In this document: piece after piece, positions 16,245 to 23,258 of the stretch | Layout of the letters: each line of letters starts with the position of its first letter | How positions within the stretch are numbered: position 1 is the first letter of the stretch | From: Parcubacteria group bacterium Greene0714_7 | Lineage (GTDB): Bacteria > Patescibacteriota > Minisyncoccia > Phycocordibacterales > Phycocordibacteraceae | Assembly (NCBI GenBank): GCA_007378985.1 | Contig: VMHB01000002.1 | Span: 158,273-222,272, forward strand | Length of the DNA stretch: 64,000 nucleotides | Direction: 5' to 3' | Program-made: the position numbers and the translations under genes | Notes under the pieces: generated by a model | Told to the model about the DNA's origin: nothing | What the model saw: only the letters and a program-made list of their open reading frames with translations | Databases searched by the model: none

Positions 16245-16967
16245 ATGACGCCCGAAATAATTTTTGAAGATGATGATGTGCTGGTGGCAAACAAACCTGC
16301 TGGGATGTCTGTACATAAAGATGGAAAGCGAGAAGAAGAGACACTCGCCGATTGGTTTGCCCTGCATGTGCCGAGCGCTAAAGAGGTGGGGGAGCCGTTA
16401 ATCCTTACCAGCGGTGTGGTCGTCAATCGCCCTGGGATTGTTCACAGGCTTGATAAAGAAACCTCAGGAGTGATTATTCTCGCAAAGAATCAAGGGGCGT
16501 TCCTTTTTTTGAAGGAACAGTTCAAGGAACGACAAACAGAAAAGATCTATCGTGCATTTTTGTGGGGAGAATTAAAAGAACGAAGCGGAATTATTACGCT
16601 TCCTATCGGACGATCAAAAACTGATTTCAGGCGTCGTTCTGCTGAGCGAGGTGCTAAAGAGCCTCTTCGAGATGCAGTTACCGCATGGACACGCCTAAAG
16701 GTTGGTGGTGGATTTACCTATGTTGAAGTAAAGCCAAAAACAGGAAGGATGCATCAAATTCGTGTGCATTTTAAGGCACTACAGTATCCAATTGTGTCTG
16801 ACTCACTCTATGCGCCTAGGCGTAAGAAAGCACTCGGCTTTGACCGGCTGGCGCTCCATGCTCTCTCGCTTTCGCTTACATTACCGAGTGGGGAGCCTCG
16901 TACCTTTGAGGCGCCATTACCTTCCGATTTTGCCGAAGCGGAAAAGGTGCTAGGGACTAGGTTCTAG
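16245..16967 (+). CDS. RluA-family pseudouridine synthase
   Basis: catalytic HRLDKETSGVIILAKN motif. Confidence 0.8.
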   Translation: MTPEIIFEDDDVLVANKPAGMSVHKDGKREEETLADWFALHVPSAKEVGEPLILTSGVVVNRPGIVHRLDKETSGVIILAKNQGAFLFLKEQFKERQTEKIYRAFLWGELKERSGIITLPIGRSKTDFRRRSAERGAKEPLRDAVTAWTRLKVGGGFTYVEVKPKTGRMHQIRVHFKALQYPIVSDSLYAPRRKKALGFDRLALHALSLSLTLPSGEPRTFEAPLPSDFAEAEKVLGTRF

Positions 16968-17026
16968 TAGTTAATTCAAAAAAGCTAGCACCTAGAAGCT
17001 AAAACCTAGCCCCTAGTTGCTTCGGT

Positions 17027-17617
17027 GTGGAAAGCGTGTTATTTTTCGTCACTATGGTAGTAGCAATTGACCTCAAAACTATTTCTTCAGTGAATGTGGA
17101 AGAGCGCAAAAAGCTTGATATTCGAGCCGGAGACGTTGTTCGTGTTCACCAGAAAATTCAGGAAAAGGGCAAAACCCGTATTCAGATGTACGAAGGGCTT
17201 GTACTTGCACGAAAACACGGCACTGAAGCTGGTGCGACATTCACTGTCCGCGCTACTCTTTCTGGTGTTGGTGTTGAGAAAATCTTTCCCCTCTATTCTC
17301 CAATGATTGATAAGATAGACATTGTTCGTCGTTCAAAAGTGCGACGCGCAAAACTGTACTACATCCGCGATAAAGTCTCTCGTGAAATGCGTCGCCAGCT
17401 TCGTAAGATGAGCCTCGTGTCTTTGACAACAGGCAGTGACCGCGAAATGGCTGAAGCAGCATCTCTCGCTGAAGCAAAGGCTGCTGAAGATGCAGCTGCA
17501 GAAGAGGCAATCCGAGCAGAGCAGGCAAAAGCAGCTGAAGTCGTTGATGAGGCACCTATCGAAGTTTCTGAGCCTGTTACTCCCGAAGAAATAGAAGCAG
17601 CAAAAGAGGCGGTGTAA
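17027..17617 (+). CDS. rplS: 50S ribosomal protein L19 with Ala/Glu-rich C-terminal extension
   Basis: ...LDIRAGDVVRVHQKIQEKGKTRIQMYEGLVLARKHG... L19 core; true start may be internal Met at 17054; C-terminal ~70 aa low-complexity AEAKAAEDAAAEE. Confidence 0.8.
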   Translation: MESVLFFVTMVVAIDLKTISSVNVEERKKLDIRAGDVVRVHQKIQEKGKTRIQMYEGLVLARKHGTEAGATFTVRATLSGVGVEKIFPLYSPMIDKIDIVRRSKVRRAKLYYIRDKVSREMRRQLRKMSLVSLTTGSDREMAEAASLAEAKAAEDAAAEEAIRAEQAKAAEVVDEAPIEVSEPVTPEEIEAAKEAV

Positions 17618-17645
17618 GTTCAATATGTATTAAAACTGTGCAGAA

Positions 17646-17674
17646 ATGCACAGTTTTTCTTTTAAATAAATTGG
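17646..17674 (+). terminator. rho-independent terminator after rplS
   Basis: ctgtgcagaaatgcacag hairpin followed by tttttctttt. Confidence 0.6.
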
Positions 17675-17695
17675 TAGACGCTATATACTTGAGGT

Positions 17696-18397
17696 ATGGG
17701 AAAGCGTGGTCCAAAGCCAAGGCGTAAAAAACCTGTCGAATGGTCTTCTAATCTGGCATACGCCATCGGACTCATTGCTACGGACGGGTCTCTTTCTAAG
17801 AATGGACGGCATATTGAATTAACATCAAAAGATCGGGGGCAGTTGCAAACTTTCATGAGGTGTCTTGATATAGAGGTAAAAATCGGTATCAAAAAAGGTT
17901 ATGCCGATAAAACCGCGAACCGTGTTCAGTTTGGAGATGTGGTTTTTTATGATTTTCTTTTAGAGATTGGGCTTACTCCGAACAAAACTAAGACGATTGG
18001 AGCACTCGATATTCCTGACAAATATTTCTTTGATTTCTTGCGCGGGCATCATGATGGAGATGGGTCTTTTCATTCGTATTGGGATAAGCGTTGGAAATCG
18101 AGTTTCATGTTCTATCTTATTTTTGTGAGTGCAAGTAAGGAACACGTTGATTGGCTTCGTTCCAAACTGGAACGTTTTTTGGATGTACGGGGGCACATTA
18201 CGCACGGGAGAACGGCAACCGTATATCAGCTTAAATATGCGAAGGCTGAGTCTTTAAAAATTATCAAAAACATGTATTATTCCAATACAGTTCCTTGCCT
18301 CAAACGAAAAAGAGTTAAGATTTTTAAGGCTCTTCGTCGTGCAGGGAACTTGACAAAATTTGCCCAGGTGTTGAAACTGGTAGACATTTCACCTTGA
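17696..18397 (+). CDS. LAGLIDADG-family homing endonuclease, free-standing
   Basis: two LAGLIDADG motifs: LAYAIGLIATDGSL and FLRGHHDGDGSF; stop codon TGA lies inside anticodon loop of downstream tRNA-Leu. Confidence 0.75.
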   Translation: MGKRGPKPRRKKPVEWSSNLAYAIGLIATDGSLSKNGRHIELTSKDRGQLQTFMRCLDIEVKIGIKKGYADKTANRVQFGDVVFYDFLLEIGLTPNKTKTIGALDIPDKYFFDFLRGHHDGDGSFHSYWDKRWKSSFMFYLIFVSASKEHVDWLRSKLERFLDVRGHITHGRTATVYQLKYAKAESLKIIKNMYYSNTVPCLKRKRVKIFKALRRAGNLTKFAQVLKLVDISP

Positions 18398-18445
18398 GGT
18401 GGTGAAGCCCGCAAGGGCGTGGAGGTTCGAGTCCTCTCCTGGGCA
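18362..18445 (+). tRNA. tRNA-Leu (anticodon GAG), type II with long variable arm
   Basis: acceptor GCCCAGG/CCTGGGC, anticodon stem TCACC/GGTGA loop TTGAGGT, variable hairpin GCCC-GCAA-GGGC, T-arm GGAGG-TTCGAGT-CCTCT, discriminator A. Confidence 0.8.
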
Positions 18446-18506
18446 CACTTCGACTCGCAAGCTCGCTTCGGTGTAAACACATGAGGCGAGTGAGGCGGAG
18501 TAGTAT

Positions 18507-18582
18507 GGTGGTTGTAGCTCAGCTGGTAGAGCTCCGGTTTGTGGTACCGGCGGTCGTGGGTTCGAGCCCCATCAACCACCCA
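18507..18582 (+). tRNA. tRNA-His (anticodon GTG) with encoded G-1
   Basis: G-1 plus GTGGTTG acceptor pairing CAACCAC-C, D-arm GCTCAGCTGGTAGAGC, anticodon stem CCGGT/ACCGG loop TTGTGGT, T-arm GTGGG-TTCGAGC-CCCAT. Confidence 0.85.
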
Positions 18583-18616
18583 GAATGACACCCGCCTTGT
18601 GCGGGTTTTGTCATTC
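18583..18616 (+). terminator. rho-independent terminator after tRNA-His
   Basis: gaatgacacccgccttgtgcgggttttgtcattc hairpin with T-run. Confidence 0.6.
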
Positions 18617-18649
18617 TGGGTGGCTAAGCAAGCAAATAGTTTTGCTTGC

Positions 18650-18812
18650 GTCAGGGAATCGAAAAGCGGAACGATGTTTCTTGTCTCAAGAAACCGTGAG
18701 CTGGCGATTAGCGAATCGTGCCGAGAGGCTCTGCGACCGAGCCGAACAGTCGCCCTCGCCAGTATGATGAAGCGTCAGGTGAGTCGAGAGTTGTAGTCGA
18801 TTCCCTCCAGAT
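18650..18812 (+). promoter_or_regulatory. structured 5' leader upstream of ribE-ribH, candidate divergent FMN riboswitch
   Basis: closing helix GGGAATCGA...TCGATTCCC; internal segments resembling RFN element blocks (CTGGCGATTAGCGAA vs CCGGCGGTAGTAAAG; GAGCCGAACAGT vs GAAGCCGACAGT); sits immediately upstream of riboflavin genes. Confidence 0.3.
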
Positions 18813-18918
18813 AAATAGACTTAGGAATTTCACCTCGACTCCCTGTAGCCACCCCACGTAAGAACTTTAAAAAGCTTGCCCCTGTTCGTGCTCCCCGAAA
18901 AGGTTTATTGTAGTAATA

Positions 18919-19533
18919 GTGTTTACGGGCATTATCCGCAATGTGTCAACGGTGGTTACATCTGTTCCGGACAACGGTTGCTTGATTGTGCAGATTGCTA
19001 AGCCTCGCGGTTGGCGTACCTATATTGGGGACAGTATCTCTGTTAACGGAGTGTGTTCCACCGTGAAGGATAGTGGGCGCTTTTTGGTTTTTGAATATAT
19101 GCCCGAAACAGTTTTGGTTACCAATGTAGGAAAGTTAAAAACTAAAGACATAGTAAACATTGAACGCTCTTTGACATTGCGCGAACGCTTAGATGGGCAC
19201 ATTGTGCAAGGTCATATCGATACCACTGGCACCATCGCTCGAATTTTTTTAGAGGGTGCCGCTAGAGTTATAGTAATTACTTTGACCCAAAAGAAATCGC
19301 ACTTCATGAGGTTTGTTGTTCCTAAGGGGTCAATAGCAATCGAAGGTATCAGTTTGACTGTGGTTACTGTGACTAAAAGGAGCCTTACGGTAAAAGTTCT
19401 ACCCTATACATGGGGTCAGACTAACCTGCACACAAAAATTATTGGTGATGCGGTAAATATAGAGTTTGATATTATGGTTAAATATCTAGAGCGTTTAATG
19501 GATACTAACGTAACCTATGCAACTAAAAAATAA
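18919..19533 (+). CDS. ribE: riboflavin synthase alpha chain
   Basis: MFTGIIRNVS... duplicated lumazine-binding halves. Confidence 0.85.
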   Translation: MFTGIIRNVSTVVTSVPDNGCLIVQIAKPRGWRTYIGDSISVNGVCSTVKDSGRFLVFEYMPETVLVTNVGKLKTKDIVNIERSLTLRERLDGHIVQGHIDTTGTIARIFLEGAARVIVITLTQKKSHFMRFVVPKGSIAIEGISLTVVTVTKRSLTVKVLPYTWGQTNLHTKIIGDAVNIEFDIMVKYLERLMDTNVTYATKK

Positions 19534-19960
19534 GCCTCTTAAAAAAGTAAATGCTGCCAACCTCTCTGTTGGGGTTGTTGTTTCGAGGTTTAATGAGAGC
19601 ATCACCACTGAACTCCTAGGAACTGCTCTGCAGGCATTGAAAAAATCTAAGGTGAAGACTAACCGCATTGAAGTGATGTTTGTCCCTGGGGCAATGGAAA
19701 TTCCTTTTGCGTTACAAAAAATGGCTCGTAGAAAAAAATATAACTGCCTTGTTGCGTTAGGATGCGTTATCCGCGGTGATACGCCACATTTCGATTATGT
19801 GTGTAAGACTGCGCAAGAAGGAGTGCTTCGGGTCAGTCTTGATCACGTTGTTCCGATTGGTTTTGGGGTAGTAACTGTAAATACTGCAAAACAGGCAAAG
19901 GCACGGATACATATTGGATTCGACGCGGTGATGGCTGCTTTAGAGTTGGCAACACTGTAG
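19517..19960 (+). CDS. ribH: 6,7-dimethyl-8-ribityllumazine synthase
   Basis: ...VGVVVSRFNESITTELLGTALQALKKSKV...MFVPGAMEIPFALQKMA... lumazine synthase signature. Confidence 0.85.
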   Translation: MQLKNKPLKKVNAANLSVGVVVSRFNESITTELLGTALQALKKSKVKTNRIEVMFVPGAMEIPFALQKMARRKKYNCLVALGCVIRGDTPHFDYVCKTAQEGVLRVSLDHVVPIGFGVVTVNTAKQAKARIHIGFDAVMAALELATL

Positions 19961-20079
19961 TGGATGTTGCCTTGTCGCTCATCTCCGAGATTTGTAGCCG
20001 ACTCCAACTCCTGTAGCCACCCAAAAATAAAGAAGGGGATGCACATGCATTTTGAAGTGCCTGTGTTATATCTGTAGAT

Positions 20080-21039
20080 ATGCACACTAAAAAGCGTATT
20101 GGTGTATTCACGCCAATAAAGGCCACATTTGCATCAAACGCAATTGTCCGCGAGCTCTTGCCTGAGCGAACAGTGGAAGAGCTATACGAACTTCTTGATG
20201 CAAATTCAGGGATTGAGTATTACAAGGATCTCGACCCGCATAAGTCCGTGATTGAGAATGGCAAGGTGTACTGCGGTGACATCTGCGTGTCGGATCTCGA
20301 CCTATTCTTCTGGTATTACTTGCCGGATTATGATCCGACTAGCTTCGAATTCCAGGTTCTCGAGACTGTGAGTCGACGGACGAAGGTTTCGCCCAACCCT
20401 CAGGGGCTCGTGCGCAGTATGGATAAGTTCACAGCACACTCGGCTTTGAAAAATGCAGGGCTTCCGACACCCGATTTCGCACTGTTTCCTGCAACTGACA
20501 CAGCGTATGCGAAGAAGCTCTTCAAGAAGTGGGGGACTCTCCTGCTGAAGCCAAGACTTGGAAAATTTGGGCACGGCATTCTGAAGATCGACTCGGAAGG
20601 AATGCTCCGTGACGCCATAGCCTACGCAGCTTCGTCGCACCCGGATCCACTCCAGATTTTCGTTGAGCGTTTCGAAGAAAATGACATGGATCGCTGGATC
20701 AGCGCGACGAACATAGGAGGGCAAACTCTTTTCGGTTACCGAAAGAAGTCGACCAAATTCGTGGACGGGTGGAAAGTATATGACGAAGAGTTCAAGGGAG
20801 GGGAAGCATTCTACGTCGACCCGTCTCCTGTCGAGAACATTGCATCGGCAGCAGCCAAAGCGCTCGGCGCAGACATCGTCGGGTTCGATTGCATCTATGT
20901 GACCAGCCGGAAAGAGTATCTTATCGTCGACGAAAACACTTTTCCCGGCATCTACGAGGATTGTTTCGAGCAAGCAGGAAAAGGAAGTCTCGCAGAGAAT
21001 TTCTATCGGATTATCACAGAAAGCCTTAAGGTAGCCTAA
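20080..21039 (+). CDS. ATP-grasp ligase, RimK/GshB (glutathione synthetase)-like
   Basis: 319 aa; KPRLGKFGHGILKI, ..VERFEEN.., ..YLIVDENTFPG.. ATP-grasp blocks; overall layout parallels E. coli GshB (316 aa). Confidence 0.6.
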   Translation: MHTKKRIGVFTPIKATFASNAIVRELLPERTVEELYELLDANSGIEYYKDLDPHKSVIENGKVYCGDICVSDLDLFFWYYLPDYDPTSFEFQVLETVSRRTKVSPNPQGLVRSMDKFTAHSALKNAGLPTPDFALFPATDTAYAKKLFKKWGTLLLKPRLGKFGHGILKIDSEGMLRDAIAYAASSHPDPLQIFVERFEENDMDRWISATNIGGQTLFGYRKKSTKFVDGWKVYDEEFKGGEAFYVDPSPVENIASAAAKALGADIVGFDCIYVTSRKEYLIVDENTFPGIYEDCFEQAGKGSLAENFYRIITESLKVA

Positions 21040-21047
21040 TGTTTTCG

Positions 21048-23120
21048 TCAAGAAGTGAGCTTTTCGTACCCCTCAATCATTTTCTCGAGACTCACGATAT
21101 CTTCGGACATCTGACGAGCGTGCGTGAGGGCTATCTCTGACGCAATGTTTTGTGGCAGTAGTTTTCGCATATCTTTGTATCCAAGAGATCGTGCTTGGGA
21201 CAGTATGTCGTCAGCAGTGGTTCTGCGCCCTGCGAGCATATCTGTTAATGGTCGTAGCAGTTCGTCTAGCTCCTTGCCACCCAAGATTTTTGCGAGCGAA
21301 AGTAGCCGCCGACAATAGTAATGTATGTCGTCGTTCTCTAGTCCTTCGTGAGCGGCAGCGTGCTGTAGATATTTGCGCACATGCGTATCGGGTGCGATGC
21401 GTATGGTCTTTGCATGTTTGTCAAAGGCAAATGGCTCCGCTTTTGCCGAATCGTGCGGGACTACTTTGAGGTTACCGTCTTGGATGTGTCGCAAAATAAT
21501 TTGAAGCAGAAGCGACACCGCAAGAAGAACCGGAAGCCGGTTCATGTCCATGCCACGCTGTTCGAATGTGCCGTGCGCATTTATCTTAACCGGCGTCCAG
21601 TTGGTATCGAGTATGGAGCGATAGAAAGAGGCTCCCTTTACGCCGATGTCAGCGAGAGACTTCAGCCACGAGTCATTACGATCTCTAATCCTACTCAGAA
21701 GATCGGCTCCTGCATGTACATATGCAGGGAGACTGCCAAAGGTAGGTAAGCTGTTATATAAGCCTCGAGGGTACTCTAATTCTTCGCTACCACGATAGAC
21801 CAGCATTCGGGTGTCTTTGGCGAAATGCCGACCTTGGTAAAAAGGCGAGGATTGCATGAATGTGGTGAGCGCAGGGTCGGCGGCGATCAGGAAGTTAAAG
21901 GCGTTTACGAGGTATTCCTGGTTTTTAGAATCGGAGAGTTCTTTTAGGATGAGTTTTTGCGAGTCAAAGACGCCCCAAGGGAGAGCATAGTGGCAGTGGT
22001 AGCCTGCGACTCGCCCGGCTATTTGAAAGCGTGTTTTTCCAAAAAGTTTTGTCTGCACCCGATATCGTGGGTCACTTCGCATCTCGGGTGTAAATTTTCC
22101 AGGGTACGTCCCCAAAGGCAGGATGCCATACCCGGCTTCGCTCGCAGATTCAACAAGGAGTTTCAGGCCCGCAAGAAGACTTTTCATCGTGTCCGTTCCT
22201 TCAATGTTTGGGTAGCTTCCGAGCTCTATAAGATTATGCGCGCACTCCTTGGTAACTTCATGGGTTTTTGTTTTTTCAGCGATTTTTGAGAGTATCTTAT
22301 CGGCACCGGGTACGATGCGCCCTTCTGTATCAATAACGAAGAACTCTACCTCAAAGCCTATGGTGAATTTTTTAAGTGGGGCTTTTGGCGGTTTTTCTAT
22401 TGTGGGGTCATTGAGATATGCGTTATGCGCACGAGTGACGAGGCTTGAAATTTCCTTGTGTATTGGTTTCAACAGTCCCGAAGTCTCTAGGGGGCGTTTT
22501 GTCCCACGTCTGGTGACTCGGATGAGTTCTGCAAGTTCCCGAATTGATTTCTGGAACACGAACCGGATAAGGATGAGTATCACTCCGCAAAAAATGACAA
22601 GTTGTAGCAGGAAGCGAGCGAGGTTTCGAATCCAGGCATCAGTTACGGCTGTGGCTATATAGCCAGCATGTTGCATAAGAACCAGCGCCCCGGTAATCCG
22701 TTCGGCTGAATGGAGCGGAGCAATGGAAACATACATTTGAGTTTTGCCGGTGCCTACGTAAAAATTCTTCACATTGTTCGTTTGCATCACGGTTTCGATA
22801 TCGGCGAGAGAGACTGGTGGATTGTTTTGATACAAAGCGGAAAAGGCGAGTAGCTTAGGCGAACTGTCATACACGGCGAAGCCGGCTACGCGTTCATTTG
22901 CTGAAATACGATCCACCGTTTTTTGTACAGAAGCGACCGTGTCACTTCGTGCTAAAGCAGGCTCCACAGCTTCCGCCAGTGAATCAGAAAGTATGTTTGT
23001 CCTGTACGCTAAGTCAGAGGATAAATCGACTTGCTGATTGCGCACTTGCACAAAGGTAAACGAAAGGACGACGAGTGCCAGAAGCAGAGCGCCTCCGGCA
23101 ACAATGGCAAAGATTCTCAT
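21048..23120 (-). CDS. membrane-anchored sensor-like domain fused to glutamate-cysteine ligase family 2 (GCS2/YbdK-like carboxylate-amine ligase)
   Basis: ATG at 23120 (MRIFAIVAGG); TM1, ~160-aa extracytoplasmic domain, TM2 FLLQLVIFCGVILILIRFVF, then GCS2 N-terminal motif FTIGFEVEFFVIDTEGR and downstream GCS2-like region. Confidence 0.55.
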   Translation of the reverse strand: MRIFAIVAGGALLLALVVLSFTFVQVRNQQVDLSSDLAYRTNILSDSLAEAVEPALARSDTVASVQKTVDRISANERVAGFAVYDSSPKLLAFSALYQNNPPVSLADIETVMQTNNVKNFYVGTGKTQMYVSIAPLHSAERITGALVLMQHAGYIATAVTDAWIRNLARFLLQLVIFCGVILILIRFVFQKSIRELAELIRVTRRGTKRPLETSGLLKPIHKEISSLVTRAHNAYLNDPTIEKPPKAPLKKFTIGFEVEFFVIDTEGRIVPGADKILSKIAEKTKTHEVTKECAHNLIELGSYPNIEGTDTMKSLLAGLKLLVESASEAGYGILPLGTYPGKFTPEMRSDPRYRVQTKLFGKTRFQIAGRVAGYHCHYALPWGVFDSQKLILKELSDSKNQEYLVNAFNFLIAADPALTTFMQSSPFYQGRHFAKDTRMLVYRGSEELEYPRGLYNSLPTFGSLPAYVHAGADLLSRIRDRNDSWLKSLADIGVKGASFYRSILDTNWTPVKINAHGTFEQRGMDMNRLPVLLAVSLLLQIILRHIQDGNLKVVPHDSAKAEPFAFDKHAKTIRIAPDTHVRKYLQHAAAHEGLENDDIHYYCRRLLSLAKILGGKELDELLRPLTDMLAGRRTTADDILSQARSLGYKDMRKLLPQNIASEIALTHARQMSEDIVSLEKMIEGYEKLTS

Positions 23121-23220
23121 CTTTTCTATTCTATACAAGATAACTTTGCATCGCCACCCAAATGGAGTGCTGTGAGGTACGCATTTTATTTTTTGTGGCG
23201 CTCGGTATGTGATGCTCCAA

Positions 23221-23258
23221 TATAAAACCCCCGCTCGTTCGAGCGGGGGTTTTATATT
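23221..23258 (-). terminator. rho-independent (bidirectional-looking) terminator
   Basis: aaaacccccgctcgttcgagcgggggtttta. Confidence 0.6.

What the first reader, a model, noticed from the sequence alone, without database searches (positions are those of the whole stretch)
17696..18445. Free-standing LAGLIDADG endonuclease gene whose stop codon sits in the anticodon loop of tRNA-Leu(GAG)
The LAGLIDADG ORF (two motifs: LAYAIGLIATDGSL and FLRGHHDGDGSF) is not inside any detectable intron. tRNA-Leu is contiguous and intact, and the gene lies between rplS and a tRNA-Leu/tRNA-His pair. Its last ~36 nt are the 5' half of tRNA-Leu and its TGA stop is the TTGAGGT anticodon loop. Free-standing LAGLIDADG genes are uncommon in bacteria. 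The overlap couples endonuclease expression with tRNA transcription, and the arrangement could be a remnant of an intron that has lost its ribozyme or a domesticated enzyme.
Basis: seen in the sequence. Interest (0 to 1): 0.5.

Follow-up and report, generated by a model that had tools for sequence, protein, structure and literature searches.

The report
Homing endonuclease gene riding on tRNA-Leu
A selfish DNA-cutting enzyme gene sits directly in front of the tRNA-Leu(GAG) gene in this and hundreds of other Patescibacteria. It appears to have broken into the standard tRNA gene and brought an altered replacement tRNA with it, which makes it a previously undescribed variant of a known kind of mobile element.

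Summary
A 233-aa two-motif LAGLIDADG ORF (17696-18397) ends on a TGA formed by U33-G34-A35 of an intact tRNA-Leu(GAG) (18362-18446). No intron ribozyme is detectable.

The overlap itself is incidental. It occurs in 25 of 72 related loci, scattered over the protein tree, and the closest relatives stop 8 nt before the tRNA.

The real finding is the locus. In at least 80 Patescibacteria genomes this family lies in rplS - [25-nt tRNA-like element] - endonuclease gene - tRNA-Leu(GAG).
- The upstream element (17668-17695) copies positions 14-39 of the standard tRNA-Leu(GAG), with one extra T.
- One genome (L036) still keeps the resident promoter and the whole standard 5' half there.
- Most close relatives have an empty rplS-tRNA site, and others keep only endonuclease relics.
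- The standard D-arm/anticodon-arm sequence occurs in 23 of 50 empty sites and in 0 of 81 occupied ones.
- Occupied sites carry many compensated stem variants.

Best reading: a free-standing homing endonuclease that targets the standard tRNA-Leu(GAG) gene and travels with a resistant tRNA allele. Cleavage is not tested. I judge it a new variant of a known kind.

The parts
17054..17617 (+). rplS (ribosomal protein L19), the conserved left neighbour of the cassette
   Evidence: ORF. An rplS homologue lies directly upstream on the same strand in 80 of 86 loci that carry the endonuclease.
17632..17665 (+). rplS intrinsic terminator (11-bp stem plus T run). Homology with the related genome L086 ends here.
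   Evidence: terminator scan; inverted repeat I5; L086/window homology stops at window 17660.
17661..17689 (+). Promoter-like site TTTAAA-17-TATACT. The -10 box lies inside the tRNA-like element and ends 6 nt before the ATG, so the mRNA is probably leaderless.
   Evidence: The same geometry (a TAnnnT box exactly 6 nt before the start codon) is found in 32 of 69 related loci.
17668..17695 (+). Upstream tRNA-like element AAATTGGTAGACGCTATATACTTGAGGT. It is a fragment of a standard tRNA-Leu(GAG) gene (D-loop to anticodon loop, positions about 14-39) with one extra nucleotide. I infer it is the relic of the invaded target. It may also serve as promoter, operator or left homology arm.
   Evidence: Direct repeat D2. 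24 of 28 positions identical to the tRNA of empty sites. At least 19 of 25 positions match the consensus in 73 of 83 loci. L036 has the full 5' half with acceptor stem and its own promoter at this place.
17696..18397 (+). LAGLIDADG homing endonuclease gene (233 aa, two motifs, monomeric type)
   Evidence: Both catalytic Asp residues are conserved in 78 of 78 relatives. AlphaFold2 model pLDDT 89. The best structural match is I-Tsp061I, 2DCH.
18350..18355 (+). TTGACA motif 6 nt (18356-18361) before the tRNA. It recurs at this place in about 23 of 75 occupied loci. In relatives its TGA is the native stop codon. Here it is read as AAC TTG ACA, so translation runs on into the tRNA.
   Evidence: Role unexplained.
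18362..18446 (+). tRNA-Leu(GAG). It is intact but non-standard in the D stem and anticodon stem, with compensated changes. I infer it is the endonuclease-resistant allele.
   Evidence: Eleven of the 16 differences from the nearest empty-site tRNA (L087) fall at positions 10, 11, 25-29 and 43-46.
18362..18397 (+). Overlap of the ORF 3' end with the tRNA 5' half. The stop TGA at 18395-18397 is U33-G34-A35, and the anticodon GAG is 18396-18398.
   Evidence: The encoded tail (residues 223-233) is low-confidence in the model, with residues 225-233 at pLDDT below 50.
18508..18615 (+). tRNA-His(GTG) and the terminator that closes the tRNA unit. Homology with L086 resumes here.

Best explanation
The ORF is a free-standing, still active-looking LAGLIDADG homing endonuclease gene. 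It belongs to a large Patescibacteria family that is dedicated to one site, the tRNA-Leu(GAG) gene downstream of rplS.

Shown:
- The family is always found as rplS - tRNA-like fragment - endonuclease gene - tRNA-Leu(GAG).
- Close relatives mostly have the empty site, rplS - promoter - tRNA-Leu(GAG).
- The upstream fragment is a copy of positions about 14-39 of the standard tRNA, with one inserted T.
- One genome retains the whole standard 5' half and its promoter in front of the endonuclease gene.
- Occupied sites never carry the standard D-arm/anticodon-arm sequence. They carry diverse, fully base-paired variants.
- Sites that have lost the gene keep relics of its 3' end.

Inferred mechanism:
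1. The enzyme cuts the standard, highly conserved tRNA-Leu(GAG) gene in or near the anticodon arm of genomes that lack it.
2. Repair copies the cassette, which brings its own promoter, the endonuclease gene and a complete nuclease-resistant tRNA-Leu(GAG).
3. The resident 5' part of the tRNA is left upstream as a dead fragment. That fragment is retained because it carries or overlaps the promoter of the endonuclease gene, and may also act as operator or homology arm.
4. The gene is transcribed as a leaderless mRNA, and the tRNA is made from the same transcript or from a promoter embedded in the last codons of the gene.

Because the gene abuts the tRNA, loss of its own stop codon simply lets translation run on to the TGA that every GAG anticodon loop contains. 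That is what has happened in this window, and it adds a disordered 11-residue tail.
For: Family and fold:
- Pfam LAGLIDADG_3 hit above cutoff.
- Profile match to I-Tsp061I, E 7e-8.
- AlphaFold2 pLDDT 89, and Foldseek top hit 2DCH with E 1e-10 and TM 0.63/0.70.
- Both catalytic Asp residues present in 78 of 78 relatives.

Site specificity:
- In all 80 genome loci where sequence is available, a tRNA-Leu with anticodon GAG follows at -45 to +46 nt.
- rplS is upstream in 80 of 86 loci.

Mobility:
- An unbiased sample taken through RplS gives about 50 empty sites, 6 occupied sites complete through the tRNA, and 3 more endonuclease hits cut by contig ends (L101, L105, L118).
- Occupied and empty sites interleave on the RplS tree, requiring at least 16 changes.
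- Endonuclease identity is nearly independent of RplS identity (r = 0.22). Some pairs have RplS 89-93% against endonuclease 52-67%, and others have endonuclease 72% against RplS 44%.
- L086 has flanks 86% identical to the window. Between the rplS terminator and tRNA-His it holds other genes, an endonuclease C-terminal relic (E 4e-13) and a different tRNA-Leu.
- Short relics of the endonuclease C-terminus (...LKI..MLAIVGEQL*) lie in front of the tRNA in 7 of 27 empty non-standard sites and 0 of 23 standard ones.

Target inference:
- The upstream element is 24 of 28 identical to the standard tRNA and conserved in 73 of 83 loci.
- L036 has the promoter TTGAAA-17-TATAAT plus tRNA positions 1-37 (37 of 38 identical) immediately 5' of the gene.
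- The standard motif occurs in 23 of 50 empty sites and 0 of 81 occupied ones (Fisher p = 4e-12).
- The anticodon arm alone is standard in 31 of 50 empty sites and 9 of 81 occupied ones (p = 1e-9).
- The occupied-site tRNAs keep 5 of 5 anticodon-stem pairs (80 of 81) and 7 of 7 acceptor-stem pairs (81 of 81).
- They score lower against the Rfam tRNA model. The values are 43-52 bits, with 5 of 12 not reported, against 49.6-54.1 bits in 17 of 17 standard ones.
- The window tRNA differs from the nearest empty site mainly at paired positions of the D and anticodon stems.

No intron.

Leaderless promoter geometry.

The overlap is recurrent and derived.
Against: - No cleavage or binding data exist. 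The target is inferred from an association.
- Nine of 81 occupied sites have a standard anticodon arm. They differ only in the D stem or D loop, so either the recognition site must extend into positions about 20-26 or those enzymes have shifted specificity.
- Only one intermediate with a complete displaced 5' half (L036) was found.
- tRNA identity among occupied loci tracks neither endonuclease nor RplS identity. Co-transfer of the tRNA with the gene is therefore not shown statistically, and some pairs share the tRNA but not the endonuclease.
- The flat identity of about 58% could partly be saturation rather than transfer.
- Whole-tRNA divergence is only slightly higher among occupied pairs than among empty pairs at matched RplS identity.
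- The occupied and empty samples come from different collections. The within-sample test is weak (0 of 6 against 23 of 50, p = 0.04).
- The strong conservation of the upstream element needs a function (promoter, operator or homology arm) that is not tested.
Confidence: 0.6

Rival explanations
1. The endonuclease homes to the rplS-tRNA interval, but its recognition site is not the tRNA gene. It could be the intergenic promoter region or the tRNA 5' edge. The non-standard tRNAs would then be by-products of repeated break repair and co-conversion, and the upstream tRNA-like piece would be an accident of the founding insertion that was kept as a promoter.
For: - The locus is a general hot spot. 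L086 has unrelated ORFs and an HNH gene there.
- The tRNA and the endonuclease are replaced independently.
- tRNA-Leu(GAG) is variable even among empty sites.
- Nine occupied sites have a standard anticodon arm.
Against: - Intergenic sequences of empty sites are not conserved, which makes them a poor homing target across hosts whose RplS sequences are as little as 31% identical to one another.
- The displaced fragment ends inside the tRNA (positions 37-43) in all loci.
- The standard arm is completely excluded from 81 occupied sites across at least 16 independent clades.
Confidence: 0.17
2. This is a relic of an intron-encoded enzyme. The gene once sat in a self-splicing intron in the anticodon loop of tRNA-Leu(GAG). 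An intact tRNA copy was later regenerated downstream, for example by recombination with a spliced copy, and the ribozyme decayed. This concerns origin only and is compatible with present-day free-standing homing.
For: - The gene interrupts an old tRNA copy at the anticodon loop or 3' stem.
- Group I introns in anticodon loops are common in Patescibacteria tRNAs (PMC13011429).
- The closest solved relative, I-Tsp061I, is intron-encoded.
Against: - No intron match in the window at E<=10 or in 20 other loci.
- Only 0-30 nt lie between the fragment and the ATG, and 10 nt or fewer between the stop and the tRNA. There is no room for a ribozyme.
- The Patescibacteria tRNA introns described so far carry HNH genes, not LAGLIDADG genes, and none is in tRNA-Leu(GAG) (PMC13011429).
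Confidence: 0.1
3. This is a domesticated, vertically inherited DNA-binding protein (WhiA-like regulator or maturation factor). It would bind the upstream element to control the tRNA-Leu/tRNA-His operon, and the nuclease would no longer be used for mobility.
For: - Fixed position next to the same genes.
- Strong conservation of a 25-nt DNA element overlapping its promoter.
- A weak WhiA-LAGLIDADG Pfam hit.
Against: - The gene is absent from most close relatives.
- Relics and deletions are frequent.
- It is discordant with the host tree.
- Catalytic Asp residues are invariant.
- There is no helix-turn-helix domain, and the WhiA hit is below the cutoff (19.9 against 23.2 bits).
Confidence: 0.05
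4. The overlap is a purposeful control device. Because the stop codon lies inside the tRNA, RNase P cleavage at the tRNA 5' end would leave a stop-less endonuclease mRNA, which is subject to trans-translation. Endonuclease output would then be limited by tRNA maturation. This is an add-on to the main explanation.
For: - The overlap in exactly this register occurs in 25 of 72 loci.
- There is no separate strong tRNA promoter in the window, so co-transcription is likely.
Against: - The state is scattered at random on the protein tree and absent from the nearest relatives.
- 41 of 72 loci have a stop before the tRNA.
- The tail is disordered.
- A TGA in this frame is unavoidable for any GAG anticodon, so the pattern is what neutral loss of the stop codon predicts.
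Confidence: 0.15

Closest known systems
Free-standing homing endonucleases of T-even phages ('intronless homing'), especially SegB in the T4 tRNA gene cluster (PMC2330249; review PMC2988022)
   Same: - The gene is not in an intron or intein and sits beside tRNA genes.
- The enzyme recognises a conserved tRNA-gene motif in genomes that lack it.
- The break is repaired from the donor, so the endonuclease gene and the neighbouring tRNA region are inherited together.
- The carrier's own site is protected by sequence differences.
   Different: - SegB is a GIY-YIG enzyme of a phage and recognises the T-psi-C stem-loop motif.
- The gene here is a LAGLIDADG enzyme in a cellular chromosome.
- The inferred target here is the D and anticodon arms of one particular tRNA.
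- The cassette here keeps a truncated copy of the target upstream and a complete variant tRNA downstream.
- Cleavage is not demonstrated here.
LAGLIDADG endonucleases in rRNA insertions and group I introns of CPR/Patescibacteria (PMC11270868), and the archaeal rRNA-intron enzymes I-Tsp061I and I-DmoI
   Same: Same phylum or same protein fold. All are monomeric two-motif enzymes of about 190-230 aa that target a highly conserved stable-RNA gene. I-Tsp061I is the closest solved structure.
   Different: Those genes lie inside the RNA gene in an insertion that is removed from the transcript. Here there is no removable insertion. Function of the invaded gene is rescued by a second, complete tRNA copy. 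Sequence identity to 2DCH is only about 21%.
Group I introns in bacterial tRNA anticodon loops, some carrying endonuclease genes (PMC13011429, PMC3984707)
   Same: The point of entry is the same (anticodon loop or stem of a tRNA gene). They are frequent in Patescibacteria.
   Different: No ribozyme here. tRNA-Leu(GAG) is not among the reported intron hosts. The endonuclease genes reported in Patescibacteria tRNA introns are HNH.
Mobile endonuclease ORFs in fungal mitochondria that insert into a gene and bring a replacement copy of the displaced gene end (Allomyces atp6; recalled from memory: Paquin, Laforest and Lang 1994, not checked here)
   Same: The logic is the same. The invading cassette carries a substitute for the part of the host gene it displaces, and the displaced resident part is left as a decaying fragment.
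   Different: That case involves a protein-coding gene and its 3' end. Here an RNA gene is involved and the 5' part is displaced, with a whole new tRNA supplied.
Integrase-driven islands and prophages that integrate into tRNA genes and regenerate the tRNA with a carried copy of its end (general knowledge)
   Same: A tRNA gene is the landing site, and the element carries the sequence needed to keep a working tRNA.
   Different: Those elements use a tyrosine or serine recombinase and short attachment sites, regenerate the 3' end, and produce exact repeats. Here there is no recombinase, and the inferred process is double-strand-break repair.

Membership tests
LAGLIDADG endonuclease superfamily | Two LAGLIDADG motifs in one chain (monomeric type), each ending in a catalytic acidic residue | tested here: met
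   The motifs are GLIATDGS (D30) and GHHDGDGS (D122). Both Asp residues are present in 78 of 78 relatives.
LAGLIDADG endonuclease superfamily | Significant match to a curated family model | tested here: met
   Pfam LAGLIDADG_3 at 33 bits against a cutoff of 22.5, E 7e-8. The PDB profile hit to I-Tsp061I has E 7e-8.
LAGLIDADG endonuclease superfamily | Pseudo-symmetric alpha-beta-beta-alpha-beta-beta-alpha double-domain fold | tested here: met
   AlphaFold2 pLDDT 89 and pTM 0.87. The top 50 Foldseek PDB hits are LAGLIDADG-fold proteins (homing endonucleases, intein endonuclease domains, the bI3 maturase and WhiA). The best is 2DCH with E 1e-10.
LAGLIDADG endonuclease superfamily | Site-specific double-strand cleavage leaving 4-nt 3' overhangs | not testable with these tools
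   Needs purified protein and DNA substrates.
Homing endonuclease gene (mobile) | Present or absent at one and the same genomic site among related genomes | tested here: met
   About 50 empty sites, 6 occupied sites complete through the tRNA and 3 more endonuclease hits cut by contig ends, in the RplS-based sample. At least 16 changes on the RplS tree.
Homing endonuclease gene (mobile) | Phylogeny discordant with the host, together with a cycle of invasion, decay and loss | tested here: met
   Identity matrices correlate at r = 0.22, with strongly discordant pairs. Relics occur in L086, L106 and seven further sites.
Homing endonuclease gene (mobile) | The recognition site is the uninterrupted sequence of the empty allele, and the carrier's allele is not cleavable | tested here: inconclusive
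   The displaced fragment equals the standard tRNA. The standard motif occurs in 0 of 81 occupied sites and 23 of 50 empty ones. This is an association only, and 9 occupied sites have a standard anticodon arm.
Intron-encoded endonuclease (group I intron) | The ORF is embedded in a group I ribozyme with exon junctions in a host gene | tested here: not met
   No Rfam intron match at E<=10 in window 16900-19000, and none in 20 related loci. The flanks are too short. The tRNA is contiguous.
Free-standing endonuclease with 'intronless homing' (T4 Seg/Mob type) | The gene lies beside, not within, the target gene. Flanking markers are co-converted, and the carrier is protected by polymorphisms in the target. 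| tested here: inconclusive
   Position and target polymorphism fit. L036 shows a resident standard 5' half replaced by a variant tRNA. Co-conversion is not shown statistically.
WhiA-type domesticated LAGLIDADG regulator | LAGLIDADG scaffold without catalytic residues, plus a C-terminal helix-turn-helix domain, universally present in the clade | tested here: not met
   Catalytic Asp residues are retained. The protein ends after the second domain. The Pfam WhiA-LAGLIDADG hit is below its cutoff (19.9 against 23.2 bits). The gene is absent from most relatives.

The most novel reading that the evidence does not exclude
A chromosomal homing endonuclease family has specialised on an essential, almost universally conserved tRNA gene. 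It solves the lethality problem by carrying a complete nuclease-resistant tRNA-Leu(GAG), together with a truncated decoy copy of the target that doubles as its promoter, operator or homology arm. The resulting arms race would be what has driven tRNA-Leu(GAG) of many Patescibacteria away from the bacterial consensus, through dozens of compensated D-stem and anticodon-stem variants with lower tRNA-model scores. In other words, a selfish nuclease would be reshaping the sequence of a core translation component across a phylum.
Probability: 0.45. Interest if true: 0.7.

Novelty: new variant of a known kind. Interest (0 to 1): 0.6.

Why it matters
Homing endonucleases normally survive inside introns or inteins because these hide the insertion from the host gene. 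Here a widespread bacterial family seems to use a different trick on an RNA gene. It destroys the resident copy and supplies its own altered copy.

If confirmed, this would have four consequences:
1. It would be a clear chromosomal, non-phage example of intronless homing.
2. It would explain why tRNA-Leu(GAG) in many Patescibacteria departs from the otherwise very conserved sequence.
3. It would explain why the interval between the rplS terminator and tRNA-His is a hot spot where metagenome assemblies break.
4. It would provide natural LAGLIDADG enzymes with a defined 20-25-bp tRNA-gene target, together with a panel of natural resistant alleles. Those would be useful for studying how nuclease specificity and target co-evolve.

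For annotation, it warns that the 11-residue tail and the 'overlap' are by-products. It also warns that the short tRNA-like fragment is not a pseudogene to be ignored.

Tried and rejected
- **Group I intron or other RNA families around the ORF.** Nothing in the window at E<=10, and nothing in 20 related loci at gathering thresholds.
- **Conserved hairpin in the upstream element.** I inspected this by eye. The register differs between the window type (ATAC/GTAT) and the common type (TATTACC/GGTGATA), so I did not pursue it as an RNA structure.
- **Co-transfer of the tRNA with the endonuclease gene.** I compared identity matrices, partial correlations and 5'/3' halves. There is no signal (r = 0.07, Mantel p = 0.08). 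A binned analysis gives only a weak trend. Inconclusive.
- **Faster overall tRNA divergence in occupied sites.** The difference is small (0.71-0.80 against 0.74-0.84 at matched RplS identity). I therefore make the claim only for the D-arm/anticodon-arm motif.
- **Phage origin.** Only three distant (28-29% identity) relatives in 2.9 million viral contigs.
- **Short endonuclease relics by profile search.** hmmsearch finds only L086 and L106 with confidence. The 15-codon relics had to be shown by translation and a motif count.
- **Second copy in the window.** There is no second copy of the gene, the upstream element or the standard target.
- **Literature.** None of the 7 papers that the searches returned in total for LAGLIDADG plus Parcubacteria, and no paper on Patescibacteria tRNA introns or rRNA insertions, mentions this locus. 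The library is incomplete, so prior description elsewhere cannot be excluded.
Full report
**1. The observation.**
The window comes from Parcubacteria group bacterium Greene0714_7; the protein is 100% identical to its entry Greene07147_479. ORF 17696-18397 (+) encodes 233 aa with the two quoted motifs and passes the Pfam LAGLIDADG_3 threshold. ARAGORN and Rfam both find an intact 85-nt tRNA-Leu(GAG) at 18362-18446. The ORF's TGA (18395-18397) is U33-G34-A35 of the anticodon loop. rplS lies upstream and tRNA-His downstream. No group I intron or other known RNA is detectable in 16900-19000 even at E<=10.

**2.
Immediately before the ATG lies AAATTGGTAGACGCTATATACTTGAGGT (17668-17695). It repeats the D-loop (AAAyTGGTAGAC) and anticodon loop (CTTGAGGT) of the tRNA 700 nt downstream.
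- Against the window's own tRNA the similarity is modest (13 of 5000 shuffles reach it).
- Against the tRNA-Leu(GAG) of related genomes that lack the ORF it is 24 of 28 identical with one extra nucleotide.

**3. The protein.**
A profile of 30 family members matches one solved protein clearly, the archaeal intron-encoded I-Tsp061I (2DCH, E 7e-8). An AlphaFold2 model (pLDDT 89, pTM 0.87) has the double alpha-beta-beta-alpha-beta-beta-alpha LAGLIDADG fold. Its best structural matches are 2DCH, I-AniI, I-DmoI, I-SceI and relatives. Both catalytic aspartates are present in all 78 relatives examined. Residues 223-233, encoded by the tRNA gene, form a low-confidence tail, with 225-233 at pLDDT below 50.

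**4. The family and its address.**
The protein has 3861 database relatives, nearly all unnamed and from Patescibacteria. At least 582 species genomes encode one.
- In the 80 best loci, which span about a dozen named Parcubacteria lineages including Kaiser-, Jorgensen-, Azam-, Wolfe-, Nomura- and Moranbacteria, the gene is always followed at -45 to +46 nt by a tRNA-Leu whose anticodon is always GAG. The apparent exceptions are contig ends or my mis-framed extension.
- rplS is the upstream neighbour on the same strand in 80 of 86 loci. Downstream genes are not conserved.
- A 25-nt element with consensus TTGGTAGACGCTATTACCTTGAGGT lies 0-30 nt before the start codon in most loci. It matches at 19 of 25 or better in 73 of 83 loci, with most positions more than 90% conserved.
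- The element is usually followed by (TG)nTATAAT and then exactly 6 nt before the ATG (32 of 69 loci). This is the geometry of a leaderless mRNA.
- In the window and its nearest relatives the spacer is gone. The -10 box (TATACT, 17684-17689) lies inside the element, again 6 nt before the ATG.

**5. Empty sites and relics.**
Sampling metagenomes through RplS rather than through the endonuclease gave the following.
- About 50 loci have tRNA-Leu(GAG) 2-180 nt after rplS behind an ordinary sigma-70 promoter, with no endonuclease gene.
- Six loci are occupied and complete through the tRNA.
- Three more endonuclease hits are cut by contig ends (L101, L105, L118).

The nearest empty site to the window is L087 (RplS 85% identical). 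Occupied and empty loci interleave on an RplS tree, requiring at least 16 changes.

L086 has flanks 86% identical to the window. Its homology breaks exactly at the rplS terminator (window 17660) and resumes at tRNA-His (18499). In between it has two unrelated ORFs, a 50-codon relic of a different endonuclease lineage (E 4e-13), a different tRNA-Leu(GAG), and an HNH gene.

L106 keeps a decayed upstream element plus the last 35 codons (E 2e-9). Six further empty sites (seven with L106) keep only the last 15 or so codons (...LKIvkMLAIVGEQL*). These contain a good promoter (TTGAAg-17-TATAGT) now serving the tRNA. Such relics occur in 7 of 27 empty sites with a non-standard tRNA and in 0 of 23 with the standard one. 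The same embedded promoter sits in the 3' codons of at least 26 of 75 intact genes.

Endonuclease identity is almost independent of host relatedness. It is about 58% across RplS identities of 30-75%. Some pairs have RplS 89-93% against endonuclease 52-67%, and others have endonuclease 72% against RplS 44%. Together these features are the signature of a homing element cycling through invasion, decay, loss and re-invasion at one site. They are not the signature of a vertically kept host gene.

**6. What is the target?**
- In empty sites the tRNA mostly has the standard sequence TGGCGAAATTGGTAGACGC(A/G)CTACC-TTGAGG(T/G)-GGTAG, which is close to the general bacterial tRNA-Leu(GAG) as I recall it. 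It occurs in 23 of 50 empty sites and in none of 81 occupied sites (Fisher p = 4e-12). The within-metagenome comparison is only 0 of 6, p = 0.04.
- The anticodon arm alone is standard in 31 of 50 empty sites and 9 of 81 occupied ones (p = 1e-9).
- With at least 16 independent occupied clades, many of which have a standard-tRNA neighbour as their nearest empty relative, phylogenetic inertia is an unlikely explanation.
- Occupied sites carry 36 different anticodon stems. These are fully paired in 80 of 81 cases, and the acceptor stems are intact in 81 of 81. The tRNAs are therefore functional, but they have been pushed off the consensus.
- Rfam tRNA scores are 49.6-54.1 bits for 17 of 17 standard genes. 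For linked ones they are 43-52 bits in 7 of 12, with the other 5 not reported at E<=0.001. The window's score is 43 bits.
- The window's tRNA differs from L087's at 16 of 85 positions. Eleven of these are paired positions of the D and anticodon stems (10, 11, 25-29, 43-46), and the 3' spacer remains alignable.
- The upstream element corresponds to positions about 14 to 37-43 of the standard tRNA, plus one inserted T after GACGC.
- In L036 the displaced piece is complete. A promoter TTGAAA-17-TATAAT is followed by GCGCGGGTGGCGAAATTGGTAGACGC-T-ACTACCTTGAG (37 of 38 identical to the standard 5' half) and then the endonuclease gene. A full tRNA with a different D arm and anticodon stem lies downstream. 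This shows a standard resident tRNA gene that was interrupted at its anticodon arm and functionally replaced by a variant copy.

**7. Mechanism proposed.**
Shown: the architecture, the presence/absence pattern, the relics, the tRNA-derived upstream fragment, and the exclusion of the standard arm.

Inferred:
1. The enzyme cleaves the standard tRNA-Leu(GAG) gene around the anticodon arm. The 22-bp span expected for this enzyme class would cover about positions 22-43.
2. Double-strand-break repair copies the cassette from a carrier, using rplS or the tRNA 5' part on the left and the tRNA 3' part or spacer on the right.
3. The carried tRNA allele escapes cleavage through compensated stem changes, and the extra T spoils the upstream fragment as a substrate.
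4. The fragment is conserved because it overlaps the gene's promoter. It possibly also serves as an operator (I-TevI represses its own promoter through a homing-site-like operator; recalled from memory) or as a left homology arm.
5. tRNA-Leu and tRNA-His are expressed from the cassette's promoters. A simple deletion of the gene would therefore silence an essential tRNA, which explains why the relics that survive always include a promoter.

**8. The overlap.**
Because the gene abuts the tRNA, its stop is either just before the tRNA (41 of 72 loci), within the first nucleotides (6), or the anticodon-loop TGA (25). The last state is scattered on the protein tree as expected by chance: 23 changes observed against about 21 in randomisations.

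In the relatives L002 and L003 the stop is the TGA of a conserved cTTGA motif 8 nt before the tRNA. In the window the same motif (18350-18355) is read in another frame, so translation continues to the next guaranteed TGA. I therefore regard the overlap as a neutral, recurrent by-product. Coupling to RNase P processing remains an untested possibility.

**9. Comparison with known systems.**
- The nearest functional analogue is intronless homing by free-standing phage endonucleases, above all T4 SegB. SegB lies among tRNA genes, recognises a conserved tRNA-gene motif and drives inheritance of its tRNA region (PMC2330249).
- The differences are the enzyme family, the chromosomal setting, the particular tRNA, the retained truncated target and the supplied replacement tRNA.
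- It is not a member of the intron-encoded class, because no ribozyme is found.
- It is not the WhiA class.
- The papers on Patescibacteria tRNA introns (PMC13011429) and rRNA insertions (PMC11270868) do not mention this locus. No other paper in the library does either.

**10. Verdict.**
- The window's gene is an ordinary member of a large family that appears to be undescribed.
- The family's organisation is a new variant of free-standing homing.
- Confidence is high (about 0.85) that it is a mobile, site-specific homing cassette at rplS/tRNA-Leu(GAG).
- Confidence is moderate (about 0.55-0.6) that the standard tRNA gene is the target and the linked tRNA is a resistant allele.
- Overall interest: 0.6.

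Noticed in passing
L061, L070, L075, L047, L035 and 8 more loci, 9-11 nt 5' of the upstream element; not in the window: A DnaA-box-like 9-mer (TTATCCACA, at most 1 mismatch, in either orientation) sits just upstream of the tRNA-like element in 13 of 75 loci. The background is 0.7% of windows of the same size. It might tie the cassette's promoter to DnaA, or it might be shared ancestry.
   Followed up: partly
window 18350-18355; about 23 of 75 related loci, 7-9 nt before the tRNA start: A conserved yTTGACAaa(t)aat motif lies at the junction between the endonuclease gene and the tRNA, and is absent from empty sites. It often supplies the gene's stop codon. As a -35 box it would place the -10 inside the tRNA, so its role is unclear.
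   Followed up: partly
L007, L010, L019, L053, L062, L065, L074, L081 and others, last 20 or so codons of the gene; relics in L106, L121, L125, L126, L139, L142, L148: The conserved C-terminal peptide RLKIEKALRIVGE is encoded by DNA that is also a good sigma-70 promoter (TTGAAA-17-TATAGT), 17-44 nt before the tRNA. This is a dual coding/promoter constraint. After loss of the gene, this piece alone survives. The window lacks it.
   Followed up: partly
L086 2802-3212, 3316-3816, 4129-4638: In the relative with flanks 86% identical to the window, the slot holds two unrelated ORFs (136 aa, and a 166-aa membrane-like protein). An HNH-motif ORF (169 aa) is inserted between tRNA-Leu and tRNA-His. A second endonuclease class therefore uses the same tRNA cluster.
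   Followed up: partly
L001, L002, L004, L005 (Logan assemblies): All four contigs end 82-93 nt after the endonuclease stop codon, at the 3' end of tRNA-Leu. This suggests that assemblies break here because of strain-level heterogeneity downstream of or within the tRNA.
   Followed up: no
window 17420-17617: RplS carries a C-terminal extension of about 65 residues, rich in Ala, Glu and Lys and of low complexity. It is variable in length among relatives and generates spurious antisense ORFs.
   Followed up: no
window 18855-23250 compared with L086 4804-4834: The window has about 4.4 kb that L086 lacks between tRNA-His and the next shared segment. It includes ORFs 18919-19533 and 19517-19960, which look like riboflavin and lumazine synthase genes from their sequence (not checked), and a 319-aa ORF.
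   Followed up: no
L053/L073, L075/L085, L012/L015, L023/L063: Turnover inside the cassette is mosaic. Some closely related hosts share the tRNA (98-100% identity) but have endonucleases only 58-59% identical. Others share the endonuclease (78-84%) but have tRNAs only 61-68% identical.
   Followed up: partly
L018 2371-2445: This is one of the few loci without rplS upstream. Here the cassette follows a tRNA-Val(TAC), and the sequence before the upstream element (GCGGGGATTTGGTATACGC) looks like a further partial acceptor/D-arm remnant.
   Followed up: no
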